Of a DNA stretch of 45,410 bases, positions 40,672 through 43,085 are shown piece after piece. Location: positions 1-45,410 of the forward strand of contig JANPOW010000248.1 of assembly GCA_031428185.1 (NCBI GenBank), read 5' to 3'. The first letter of the stretch is position 1. Every line of letters starts with the position of its first letter. The DNA comes from Betaproteobacteria bacterium (GTDB lineage Bacteria; Pseudomonadota; Gammaproteobacteria; Burkholderiales; Burkholderiaceae_C). The position numbers were made by a program, and so were the translations under genes. Under the pieces are notes generated by a model. That model was not told the DNA's origin. It saw nothing but the letters and a program-made list of their open reading frames with translations, and did no database searches.

Positions 40672-41529
40672 TCAAGCGCCCGCCGACACCTCAAGCCGAT
40701 GGCTGGCCCCGGCGTACTGGCCCAGCAGCCGCACCAGCACCGGCAAGGCTGCGTGCAATGCGGGCGCCAGGGTGTGCGGCGGGTTGATCACCACCAAACC
40801 ACTGCCCAGCATGCCAAAACCCCGCGCATTGGGCAGGGCCAGCGTCAGCCGGGCATGCAGCCAGCCTTTTTTGGCTTGGGTGTCGGCCACGGCTTTCAGG
40901 CGTTGGGGCAATTGGGCGGCTTCACGCAAGTCCAGTTGCGGATACCAGACCAGGATCACGCCCTCGGCAAACCGGGTCAGCGCGTCGCGGCAGGCGGTGA
41001 CCACCGCTGCGTAGTCGGTCTTGATCTCGTAGCTGGGGTCGATCAGCAGCACACCGCGCCGGCTGGGTGGTGGCAGTTGCGATTTGAGGCCGACAAAGCC
41101 ATCGGCCTGCTGCACCTGCACCTGCTTGTCGCCGGCAAAGTGCTCGGCCAGCAGCGCGTGGTCGGTGGGGTGCAGCTCAAACAGGCGCAGCTGGTCTTGT
41201 GGCCGCATCAGATTGCGCGCAATGCACGGTGAGCCGGGGTATTGCGTCAAGTCATCGGCCGGGTTGAACAGGCGCAGCTGTGCCACGTAGTCGGCCAGCA
41301 GCGGTGGCAGGTCTGGTGCCTGCCACAGCCTGGCCATGCCTTGTTTGTACTCGGCGTGTTTTTGTGCCTGCTCACTGTGCAGCAGGTAGGCGCCGGCACC
41401 GGCGTGGCTGTCCACCAGGCGCCAGGCTTTGTCTTTGGCGTTCATGTGGCGCAGCACCGCTACCAGCAGGGCGTGCTTGAGCACATCGGCATGGTTGCCA
41501 GCGTGAAAGGCGTGTCGGTAAGCGAGCAT
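40672..41529 (-). CDS. rlmJ: 23S rRNA m6A2030 methyltransferase RlmJ
   Basis: MLAYRHAFHAGNHADVLKH, DSHAGAG, YPGSP, ELHPTD, IDPSYE, WYP, INPP. Confidence 0.96.
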   Translation of the reverse strand: MLAYRHAFHAGNHADVLKHALLVAVLRHMNAKDKAWRLVDSHAGAGAYLLHSEQAQKHAEYKQGMARLWQAPDLPPLLADYVAQLRLFNPADDLTQYPGSPCIARNLMRPQDQLRLFELHPTDHALLAEHFAGDKQVQVQQADGFVGLKSQLPPPSRRGVLLIDPSYEIKTDYAAVVTACRDALTRFAEGVILVWYPQLDLREAAQLPQRLKAVADTQAKKGWLHARLTLALPNARGFGMLGSGLVVINPPHTLAPALHAALPVLVRLLGQYAGASHRLEVSAGA

Positions 41530-41582
41530 GGGGCGGCATGGTGCCATGCCGTGTCGTGTTGACGGCCCGGCCACAGGTCGTG

Positions 41583-41611
41583 TTGACGGCGCGGCGGCAC
41601 GCCGCTATGGT
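41583..41611 (+). promoter_or_regulatory. Sigma70 promoter of the argD leader
   Basis: TTGACG (41583-41588), 17-bp spacer, TATGGT (41606-41611). Confidence 0.7.
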
Positions 41612-41620
41612 CCGCGCTCC

Positions 41621-41680
41621 ATGTGCAATCACACCACACCGGTCCGCAGCTTGCGACGCCGCGCTCGACGCCAGCGTTGA
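41621..41680 (+). CDS. Putative Arg-rich attenuator leader peptide MCNHTTPVRSLRRRARRQR
   Basis: 19 codons with 7 Arg (6 of the last 8; two CGA); lies between the promoter and a terminator upstream of argD. Confidence 0.75.
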   Translation: MCNHTTPVRSLRRRARRQR

Positions 41681-41731
41681 GCGGGATCGTTGCTGACCGG
41701 CCTGTGCAAACCTTGCACCTGGCCCCCACCC

Positions 41732-41764
41732 AGGCCACGACACCCGTCGTGGCCTTTGTTTTTT
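41732..41764 (+). terminator. Intrinsic terminator (attenuator) in the argD leader
   Basis: AGGCCACGAC-ACCC-GTCGTGGCCT perfect 10-bp stem followed by TTGTTTTTT, 70 nt before the argD ATG and on the same strand. Confidence 0.9.
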
Positions 41765-41834
41765 GCGCAGCCGCGATGGGCTTCTGGCTTGGGATCACCC
41801 CCAAAGCCTGAGCCAACCCTGAAACGGAAACCCC

Positions 41835-43085
41835 ATGTCTGCTGCCACTTCAAGCCCCTGCACAGCCCTGTGCCCACCTGCGCTGATGCACCTCGGGCCG
41901 CGCCCGGCCCAGGTGTTTGTGCGTGGCCAGGGCAGCTGGCTGTGGGACAGCACGGGCCAGCGCCACCTGGACCTGGTGCAAGGCTGGGCCGTCAACACGC
42001 TGGGCCACGCGCCGCCACAAGTCGCCAAAGCACTCAGCACACAGGCCGGCCGCTTGCTGCAGGCCGGGCCAGGCTTTTACAACGACCAGGCCCTGCTGTT
42101 GGCCCAACGGCTGGCCCAACTCAGCGGGTTGGACCGGGTCTTCATTGGCACCAGCGGCAGCGAGGCCAACGAGGCCGCCGTGAAGCTGGCGCGCAAGTTT
42201 GGCCAGGTGATGCGGGGCGGCGCCAGCACCATCCTGAGCTTCGAGAACAGCTTTCACGGCCGCAGCCTGGCCATGATGGCGGCCAGCGGCAAACCCGGGT
42301 TTGACCGCATCTTCAGCCCGGCCGTGCCGGGGTTTGTGAAGCTGCCGTTCAACAACATCGACGCGGTGCGGGCCGCCATCACACCCGATGTGGTGGCGGT
42401 GCTGGTCGAGCCCATCCAGGGTGAAGCCGGTGTGGTGGAGGCCAGCGCCAGCTTTCTGCCACAACTGCGTGCGCTGTGTGATGCCCACGGCCTGCTGCTG
42501 ATCCTCGACGAGGTGCAGACCGGCATTGGCCGCTGCGGCAGCTTGTTTGCACACAGCCAGTGGGCTGTGACGCAAGCGCTGCAACCCGACATCCTGACCC
42601 TGGGCAAAGGGCTGGGCGGTGGGGTGCCCATCGGCGCCATGCTGGCGCGTGAAGCAGTGTGCTGTTTTGCGCCCGGCGACCAGGGTGGCACCTACCACGG
42701 CAACGCGCTGGCTTGCGCTGCCGCACTGGCGGTGCTGGATGCGGTGACGGCGCCGGGGTTCCTGGACGGCGTGCAGCAGCAAGGCGAGCGGCTGGCCGCC
42801 GGGCTGGCAACGCTGGCGGCGCGCCATGGCCTGGGCGGCGCGGCACCGGCTGTCAGCGGCCGTGGCCTGCTGCGTGCGCTGGCCTTGCCGCCCGGGCTGT
42901 CATCGGGCTTGCTGGCCGATGCCGCACGCCAAGGCCAGCCGGGTGGTGATGGGCTGCTGGTCAACCCGGCCCAGCCGCAGCGCCTGCGGCTGATGCCCGC
43001 GCTCAACATCAGCGCCGATGAGGTGGATCAAGCGCTGGATTTGCTGGATGCCAGCTTGCAGCATGTGACGGCGCCGGCGCATTGA
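41835..43085 (+). CDS. argD: Acetylornithine aminotransferase (class III PLP enzyme)
   Basis: LDLVQGWAVNTLGH, SGSEANEAAVKLARK, SFHGRSLA, EPIQGEAGV, DEVQTG, TLGKGLGGG (PLP Lys). Confidence 0.85.
   Translation: MSAATSSPCTALCPPALMHLGPRPAQVFVRGQGSWLWDSTGQRHLDLVQGWAVNTLGHAPPQVAKALSTQAGRLLQAGPGFYNDQALLLAQRLAQLSGLDRVFIGTSGSEANEAAVKLARKFGQVMRGGASTILSFENSFHGRSLAMMAASGKPGFDRIFSPAVPGFVKLPFNNIDAVRAAITPDVVAVLVEPIQGEAGVVEASASFLPQLRALCDAHGLLLILDEVQTGIGRCGSLFAHSQWAVTQALQPDILTLGKGLGGGVPIGAMLAREAVCCFAPGDQGGTYHGNALACAAALAVLDAVTAPGFLDGVQQQGERLAAGLATLAARHGLGGAAPAVSGRGLLRALALPPGLSSGLLADAARQGQPGGDGLLVNPAQPQRLRLMPALNISADEVDQALDLLDASLQHVTAPAH

What the first reader, a model, noticed from the sequence alone, without database searches (positions are those of the whole stretch)
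41583..41835. Candidate arginine-sensing leader-peptide transcription attenuator controlling argD
Seen: a TTGACG-17-TATGGT promoter, then an ORF at 41621-41680 encoding MCNHTTPVRSLRRRARRQR (Arg codons CGC, CGA, CGC, CGC, CGA, CGC, CGT), then a perfect 10-bp terminator hairpin with a U-tract (41732-41764), then argD. Mutually exclusive pairings are visible. Protector 1:2 = CCGGTC (41639-44) with GACCGG (41695-700), GCGA (41653-56) with TCGT (41687-90), and the inner hairpin CGCTCGACG/CGTTGAGCG (41662-83) over the Arg codons and stop. Antiterminator 2:3 = GGCCTG (41699-704) with CAGGCC (41731-36) and GGGATCGT (41683-90) with ACGAcaCCC (41737-45), enclosing GTGCAA-ACC-TTGCAC; this sequesters the 5' arm of the terminator. 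Established: this is the his/trp/leu/thr/ilv/phe attenuator layout, whereas bacterial arginine biosynthesis is normally controlled by ArgR; SpeFL and the fungal arginine attenuator peptide are metabolite-sensing arrest peptides, a different mechanism. Inference: Arg-tRNA shortage stalls the ribosome on the Arg run, frees region 2 and allows read-through into argD. I do not know of a described Arg-codon attenuator for argD, but novelty needs a literature check. Caveat: CGN codons are common by chance at this GC content, so the case rests on all elements coinciding.
Basis: partly seen in the sequence, partly recalled or inferred. Interest (0 to 1): 0.92.

Follow-up and report, generated by a model that had tools for sequence, protein, structure and literature searches.

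The report
Leaderless arginine attenuator before argD
A tiny gene packed with arginine codons and a transcription stop signal sit in front of a likely arginine-synthesis gene in many betaproteobacteria, and they likely let a stalled ribosome switch that gene on when arginine runs short, a textbook control for tryptophan or histidine that I could not find described for arginine synthesis.

Summary
Real and conserved. The layout recurs before this argD clade across the order: 77 of 77 promoter-anchored leader ORFs carry at least 3 Arg; peptides are otherwise unconserved; CGA is 40% of their Arg codons (1.9% in this genome). E. coli-type ArgR was found in 0 of 41 genomes. New here: the ORF is leaderless or nearly so, and the Burkholderia counterpart is Rfam RF02884 (BcKCsr7, filed as an sRNA), whose published start site is the ORF's ATG and whose 156-nt transcript ends at the terminator. 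Translation and arginine response are untested. Best reading: classical ribosome-mediated transcription attenuator for arginine (0.8); new variant of a known kind; not found in ten literature searches. This scan noted the same idea before on other DNA.

The parts
41583..41611 (+). sigma-70-type promoter-like site, TTGACG-17-TATGGT; start of transcription predicted at about 41616-41621
   Evidence: same spacing in homologues; the Burkholderia counterpart has a mapped start site 7 nt after its -10 box
41621..41680 (+). leader ORF, 19 codons, 7 Arg (6 in the last 8 codons; run starts with CGA at 41654); no Shine-Dalgarno site, leaderless or near-leaderless
41639..41700 (+). protector (1:2) structure of the untranslated leader: inner hairpin 41662-41683, 41653-56 with 41687-90, 41639-44 with 41695-700
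   Evidence: inner helices 92-97% paired in 25 relatives with compensatory changes
41683..41694 (+). antiterminator strand (region 2), predicted to pair with 41733-41744 when the Arg codons are covered
   Evidence: 84% paired in 25 relatives, weak covariation; not stronger than shuffles in this window
41699..41724 (+). spacer hairpin (GGCC / GTGCAA-ACC-TTGCAC / GGCC) that brings region 2 next to the terminator arm
41732..41764 (+). intrinsic terminator: 10-bp stem, 4-nt loop, U-rich tail
41835..43085 (+). argD-like class III aminotransferase of the PRK03715 clade; second argD paralog of this genome

Best explanation
This is likely a ribosome-mediated transcription attenuator that reads arginyl-tRNA supply: a short Arg-codon ORF starts at or within a few bases of the predicted transcription start, an intrinsic terminator follows it, and a ribosome stalled on the Arg run would let RNA polymerase read through into argD. 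Shown in sequence: promoter-like site, ORF, terminator, conservation. Shown by others for the Burkholderia counterpart: transcription starts at the ORF's ATG and a short RNA ends at the terminator. Inferred: a 70S ribosome loads on the 5' AUG without a Shine-Dalgarno site; with plenty of arginine it reaches the stop codon (41678-80), covers 41683-90 and the terminator forms; without translation the protector helix holds region 2 and the terminator also forms; when Arg-tRNA is short the ribosome waits at the run that begins with the rare codon CGA, the protector melts, 41683-94 pairs with the 5' arm and loop of the terminator (41733-44) before the 3' arm is made, and argD is transcribed. In this organism that would switch on a second acetylornithine aminotransferase; in some Oxalobacteraceae it would control argD-argF.
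For: Promoter-anchored calling that ignored Arg content: 77 of 77 ORFs ending 10-80 nt before the terminator have 3 or more Arg, 54 have RRR. Arg is 22.7% of codons in frame against 11.5% and 11.9% in the other frames; CGA 191 of 472 Arg codons against 1.9% in this genome's long ORFs; the first RR pair begins with CGA in 64 of 77. Outside Arg the peptide is not conserved: length 15-39, first RR at position 5-23. Start codon 6-7 nt after the -10 box in 64 of 77. Pattern searches that named neither Arg codons nor argD: 9 of 48 metagenome matches have argD behind them and all 9 have the Arg run, against 2 of the other 39; 13 of 52 genus matches examined have a U-rich tail and all 13 precede argD. 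RF02884: 27 of 27 full-length matches lie before argD and encode RRR. Published start site at the ATG, TEX-enriched, and 156-nt short RNA with terminator. Footprint model: terminator arm sequestered 0.79 at the Arg run, 0.32 at the stop, 0.47 untranslated; higher at Arg than stop in 70 of 77; profile peaks at the RR codons and native region 1 protects better than shuffled in 50 of 64; native antiterminator 8.3 kcal/mol against 5.0 shuffled and 6.0 with a foreign terminator; 4 of 5 E. coli controls switch in the same model. ArgR 0 of 41 genomes. argF follows argD in 8 leader loci, argC in 1.
Against: No translation or arginine-response data. In the window itself the antiterminator (5.0 kcal/mol) is matched by 5 of 12 shuffles and the switch is modest (0.69 against 0.35). 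Covariation of the antiterminator helix in the window's clade is weak (25 of 500 shuffles; two of eight pairs mismatch in 12 of 25 rows in that register). At equilibrium the terminator wins in every footprint state (0.98-0.99), by 12-16 kcal/mol, more than for trp, thr or leu, less than for his. A lower value at the stop codon is partly built into the masking. The start codon is 9 nt after the -10 box here, not 6-7. The enzyme scores 492 bits against a cut-off of 568 for PRK03715 and aminotransferase specificity is hard to annotate. 86 of 178 clade members lack the terminator pattern. The leaders are related, so counts are not independent.
Confidence: 0.8

Rival explanations
1. The switch is real but senses slow decoding in general (the rare CGA codon, modification or supply of the tRNA that reads CGA/CGC/CGT, or ribosome-stalling antibiotics acting on Arg-X-Arg motifs), not arginine supply as such.
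For: CGA is kept at the head of the run in 64 of 77 leaders. Arg-Leu-Arg leader motifs are linked to antibiotic-induced stalling (PMC8632094, passage).
Against: The downstream genes are argD, argF and argC types, not resistance or tRNA-modification genes. Biased synonymous codons are normal in amino-acid attenuators (PMC1183508, passages).
Confidence: 0.07
2. The nascent peptide binds a metabolite (ornithine, acetylornithine or arginine) in the ribosome and arrests, as recalled for SpeFL and the fungal arginine attenuator peptide.
For: Salmonella speF has an upstream ORF with two consecutive Arg codons in a conserved domain (PMC6386406, abstract); the pathway has such intermediates.
Against: No residue other than Arg is conserved; best non-Arg column is Leu at 36%; length 15-39 and Arg position 5-23 vary freely.
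Confidence: 0.06
3. The unit is an independent or trans-acting small RNA (as Rfam files RF02884) or a fixed leaky terminator that merely damps argD; the ORF is incidental.
For: The short RNA is abundant enough for Northern detection (review passage and table); the terminator always wins at equilibrium.
Against: In-frame Arg enrichment over both other frames, start codon pinned to the start site, variable peptide but fixed Arg run; always in the same place before argD; Sass 2017 itself lists it as a short 5'UTR. A second job in trans is not excluded.
Confidence: 0.05
4. Chance coincidence of CGN codons and hairpins in GC-rich DNA.
For: 67% GC genome; the window's own antiterminator is not above shuffles.
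Against: 1 of 27 comparable sites in the genome has this Arg density; conservation across many families.
Confidence: 0.01

Closest known systems
Classical leader-peptide transcription attenuators (E. coli trpL, hisL, leuL, thrL, pheL, ilv leaders)
   Same: Short ORF with a cluster of cognate codons, protector / antiterminator / terminator helices, stop codon placed so that a finished ribosome covers region 2; behaves like 4 of 5 E. coli controls in the same footprint model (definition from PMC1183508, passages).
   Different: Cognate amino acid is arginine; the ORF is leaderless or nearly so with no Shine-Dalgarno site; controls mostly a single gene; no sequence relation shown.
Rfam RF02884 BcKCsr7 = Bc_KC_sr7 = nc5U30 (Burkholderia cenocepacia, before BCAL2701)
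   Same: Same position before the same argD clade, start codon at the transcript start, CGA-led Arg run, GCCACG-type terminator.
   Different: Filed as an sRNA or short 5'UTR with no ORF, arginine or argD link mentioned in the texts I saw; the window's leader does not score against the model.
Mycobacterial polycysteine leaderless sORF attenuators (Ms5788A; bioRxiv 10.1101/834739)
   Same: Leaderless short ORF with a run of the sensed amino acid's codons as first element of the transcript (passages).
   Different: Cysteine; acts by freeing the downstream ribosome-binding site and not by termination.
Staphylococcus aureus rbfL (PMC13009471) and Salmonella speF orf34 (PMC6386406)
   Same: Upstream ORFs whose Arg codons report arginine supply.
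   Different: rbfL uses AGA/AGG, blocks translation of a biofilm regulator when arginine is low; orf34 acts through Rho, RBS access and RNase G on a polyamine gene. Neither uses an intrinsic terminator or controls arginine synthesis.
ArgR regulon
   Same: Controls arginine biosynthesis genes including argD in Gammaproteobacteria (PMC5343134, passages).
   Different: Protein repressor; that paper reports it absent outside Gammaproteobacteria among Proteobacteria, and PF01316 was found in 0 of 41 genomes here.

Membership tests
Classical leader-peptide transcription attenuator | Short ORF at the 5' end with clustered codons for one amino acid | tested here: met
Classical leader-peptide transcription attenuator | Intrinsic terminator between the ORF and the first structural gene | tested here: met
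   short terminated RNA published for the Burkholderia counterpart
Classical leader-peptide transcription attenuator | Protector helix (1:2) over the regulatory codons | tested here: met
Classical leader-peptide transcription attenuator | Antiterminator helix (2:3) exclusive with 1:2 and 3:4 | tested here: inconclusive
   supported across the family but weak covariation in the window's clade and not above shuffles in the window
Classical leader-peptide transcription attenuator | Geometry: ribosome on the regulatory codons leaves region 2 free, ribosome at the stop covers it | tested here: met
   footprint model only
Classical leader-peptide transcription attenuator | Downstream genes make the sensed amino acid | tested here: inconclusive
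   best family acetylornithine transaminase, below cut-off in the window, above in orthologues; argF or argC adjacent in 9 leader loci; no enzyme assay
Classical leader-peptide transcription attenuator | The ORF is translated and read-through rises when the amino acid is short | not testable with these tools
   no RNA run listed; needs reporters or ribosome profiling
Rfam RF02884 (BcKCsr7) | Score above the gathering threshold of 59 bits | tested here: not met
   no match of the window's leader up to E = 10; relation rests on position and shared motifs
Metabolite-sensing arrest peptides (SpeFL, fungal AAP; features recalled) | Conserved peptide sequence and length | tested here: not met
Mycobacterial leaderless poly-amino-acid sORF attenuators | Start codon at the transcription start | tested here: inconclusive
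   shown for the Burkholderia counterpart, predicted for 64 of 77 homologues; 9 nt after the -10 box in the window
Mycobacterial leaderless poly-amino-acid sORF attenuators | Control by sequestering the downstream ribosome-binding site rather than by termination | tested here: not met
   a terminator ends about 70 nt before the argD start

The most novel reading that the evidence does not exclude
Betaproteobacteria, in which the arginine repressor was not found, control arginine synthesis by an old, widespread family of leaderless Arg-codon attenuators that came with this argD clade and was lost many times; arginine joins the amino acids sensed by classical attenuation, and the Burkholderia 'sRNA' family RF02884 is its attenuated transcript.
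Probability: 0.7. Interest if true: 0.8.

Novelty: new variant of a known kind. Interest (0 to 1): 0.7.

Why it matters
It would supply a missing control for arginine synthesis in a class where the known repressor is absent, extend classical attenuation to arginine, show leaderless leader peptides working in Proteobacteria, and re-annotate an Rfam sRNA family as a cis-acting attenuator. It is directly testable with a reporter and gives a compact arginine sensor.

Tried and rejected
Rfam on the window's leader: no relevant match. RNA runs: no RNA holder listed, which is no evidence. Equilibrium folding of the full leader as a test of switching: rejected, since it gives terminator near 1 for thr, leu, trp and his controls too; hisL also failed the prefix model at its stop codon. 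The metagenome and genus DNA patterns were mostly chance matches (37 of 48; 39 of 52 examined) and were used only with those misses counted. Two short weak RF02884 matches were unrelated terminators. A maximum-likelihood tree did not finish; only a FastTree tree was made, so no claim on order of events or transfer is made. No second Arg leader was found in the window's genome under my filter; other arg genes of relatives were not surveyed. An AraC-type arginine regulator (Pseudomonas kind, recalled) was not searched. Look-up of earlier findings by sequence and by place gave nothing.

Full report
Observation. The leader folds far better than shuffles (z -5.2). In the whole assembly, 891 promoter-like sites open a 12-41 codon ORF within 5-11 nt, 27 of these have a terminator behind, and only this one has 5 or more Arg in 8 codons.

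The gene. Best NCBIfam family is PRK03715 acetylornithine transaminase, 492 bits against a cut-off of 568; orthologues L010 and L152 pass it (739 and 798). The genome holds a second, distant argD in front of argF on C52/C313, so this is an extra paralog; the type was found in 32 of 250 family genomes and 70 of 401 order genomes including this one. In 8 leader-bearing Oxalobacteraceae loci the next gene clusters with an ornithine carbamoyltransferase, and in L187 it is argC. Substrate is inferred, not assayed; PMC5764234 (passages) warns that aminotransferase specificity is hard to annotate.

Conservation. I collected loci by protein similarity only plus 10 metagenome loci. Of 200 loci, duplicates included, 97 distinct leaders had a GCCAC/GCCGC-type terminator pattern. 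A promoter was called blind to Arg content in 95, a start codon lay 3-15 nt after the -10 box in 81, and in 77 the ORF ended 10-80 nt before the terminator; all 77 have 3 or more Arg and 54 have RRR. Of the 20 dropped, most show an Arg-run ORF, but L176 and L196 do not. Arg is 22.7% of codons in frame, 11.5% and 11.9% in the other frames. CGA makes 191 of 472 Arg codons against 1.9% in 2038 long ORFs of this genome (other genomes' usage not measured), and heads the first RR pair in 64 of 77. Nothing else in the peptide is kept. On a FastTree tree of 178 distinct clade proteins, 89 carry the terminator pattern (L176 and L196 set to 'none' by hand), 86 do not, 3 are cut; leaders are spread over the clade and absent in Polynucleobacter, Alcaligenes, Zoogloea and operon-internal copies. 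The window's gene sits in a 20-row group with 18 leaders. This fits an old element lost repeatedly, but origin was not tested. Rows are related, so counts overstate independence.

Independent checks. A DNA pattern without Arg codons or argD gave 48 metagenome matches; 9 have argD behind and all 9 have 4 or more Arg in the last 8 codons, against 2 of the other 39, one of them a cut-off true leader. A terminator pattern in 58 genus genomes was noisy; of 52 matches in the 34 loci I fetched (not all matches were fetched), 13 have a U-rich tail and all 13 precede argD; they include the window and several loci seen before. PF01316 (ArgR) rang in 0 of 41 genomes and in 9 of 14 controls; PMC5343134 (passages) reports ArgR absent outside Gammaproteobacteria.

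First, initiation. The start codon lies 6-7 nt after the -10 box in 64 of 77 leaders and 8-10 nt in the other 13, the window among them; an SD-like word precedes it in 3 of 77. Second, the Burkholderia counterpart is already catalogued. Rfam RF02884 (BcKCsr7, 'Burkholderia sRNA 7') covers exactly the leader in L150, L151, L152, L154. In 81 genomes of that family it matched 27; all 27 full-length matches lie before argD and encode RRR, two short weak ones are unrelated. Table S1 of PMC6321483 lists the B. cenocepacia J2315 RNA nc5U30 (= Bc_KC_sr7), 156 nt, beginning at the ATG and ending in the U tract, and a Northern-detected copy in KC-01. Supplements of PMC4603805 give 2967641 as primary start site of BCAL2701, enriched by TEX (510 to 955 read starts). 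PMC5688073 lists it among 82 short 5'UTRs from processing or attenuation, terminator 'yes'; its main text has no 'leader', 'arginine' or 'BCAL2701'. So a leaderless start and a terminated short RNA are observed for a relative. The window's leader does not itself score against RF02884.

Structure. With a ribosome mask, folded up to the terminator loop, E. coli thrL, leuL, trpL and pheL switch as known and hisL does not at its stop codon. The window gives 0.67-0.69 arm pairing with the A site on codons 9-19, 0.35 at the stop, 0.51 untranslated; the helix is 41683-94 with 41733-44 around a local hairpin 41699-41724. Across 77 leaders: 0.79, 0.32, 0.47; Arg above stop in 70, below in 1. In 64 less redundant leaders the profile peaks at the RR codons for two footprint sizes, and native region 1 protects better than shuffled in 50. 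Native antiterminators cost 8.3 kcal/mol to open against 5.0 for shuffled leaders (61 of 77 higher) and 6.0 with foreign terminators (60 of 77); for the window, 5.0 against 4.2, with 5 of 12 shuffles as high. In a 25-row alignment of the window's clade, protector plus terminator are 96.6% paired with covariation above all 500 shuffles; the antiterminator is 84% paired with weak covariation, 25 of 500, partly because 12 rows use a shifted register and one row is misaligned. Across clades the strand changes with the terminator arm. At equilibrium the terminator wins in all states, as for most controls, so the switch must be kinetic.

Mechanism. Most likely a classical attenuator for arginyl-tRNA with leaderless initiation (0.8); steps shown and inferred are set out in Best explanation. 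Rivals: general slow-decoding sensor 0.07, metabolite arrest peptide 0.06, sRNA or fixed terminator 0.05, chance 0.01.

Literature. Ten full-text searches found no Arg-codon attenuator of arginine synthesis. Seen as passages: PMC13009471, PMC6321483, PMC7011215, PMC4046766, PMC2965389, PMC8632094, PMC1183508, PMC5688073, bioRxiv 10.1101/834739, PMC5764234, PMC4833913, PMC5343134, PMC11109978; PMC4603805 main text had none of my terms; abstract and outline only: PMC6386406. Supplements searched: PMC8632094 (one file, no arg terms), PMC6321483, PMC4603805, PMC5688073. Not seen: Ghosh 2017, the supplement of PMC11109978, Vitreschak 2004 and Lopatovskaya 2010 (recalled as attenuator surveys, not read); any of these could hold a prior mention. 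SpeFL and fungal AAP features are recalled. Earlier notes of this scan report the same idea in many other genomes, some before argD in Proteobacteria; none named RF02884; they are leads, not support.

Verdict. Observation confirmed, interpretation supported with one helix corrected; new variant of a known kind; interest 0.7.

Noticed in passing
G000:C52 just before the argD start; L015, L016, L020, L021, L022, L030; L019, L023-L029: The other (housekeeping) argD, which precedes argF in this genome, has no Arg ORF but a different conserved hairpin with a U-rich tail directly behind its promoter-like site, across several families. No Rfam match in L015, L019, L020, L022, L030. Possibly a separate control element.
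   Followed up: partly
PMC5688073 Table S3, row BCAL2354: The short 5'UTR of B. cenocepacia leuA also begins with AUG and, read by eye, opens a Leu-rich ORF: a likely leaderless leucine attenuator in the same organism.
   Followed up: no
window 41553-41566 and 41577-41590: A 14-base direct repeat that contains the -35 hexamer; only the second copy has a -10 box at the right distance.
   Followed up: no
window 40672-41529, minus strand: rlmJ (PF04378) is transcribed away from the leader; upstream neighbours of the leader differ between relatives.
   Followed up: partly
L086 and L096: Records titled Rhodospirillaceae and delta proteobacterium carry this argD type with an Arg-run ORF; L086 shows no terminator, L096 a variant one.
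   Followed up: no
L009, L049, L054-L060, L077, L113, L208, L209; L040, L043, L047: Leader-less copies of this argD clade inside operons; in L040, L043 and L047 the gene follows an argC-like gene.
   Followed up: partly
G000 whole assembly: ARAGORN finds no tRNA-Arg(ACG) among 41 tRNA lines; the assembly is 90% complete, so this is probably a gap.
   Followed up: no
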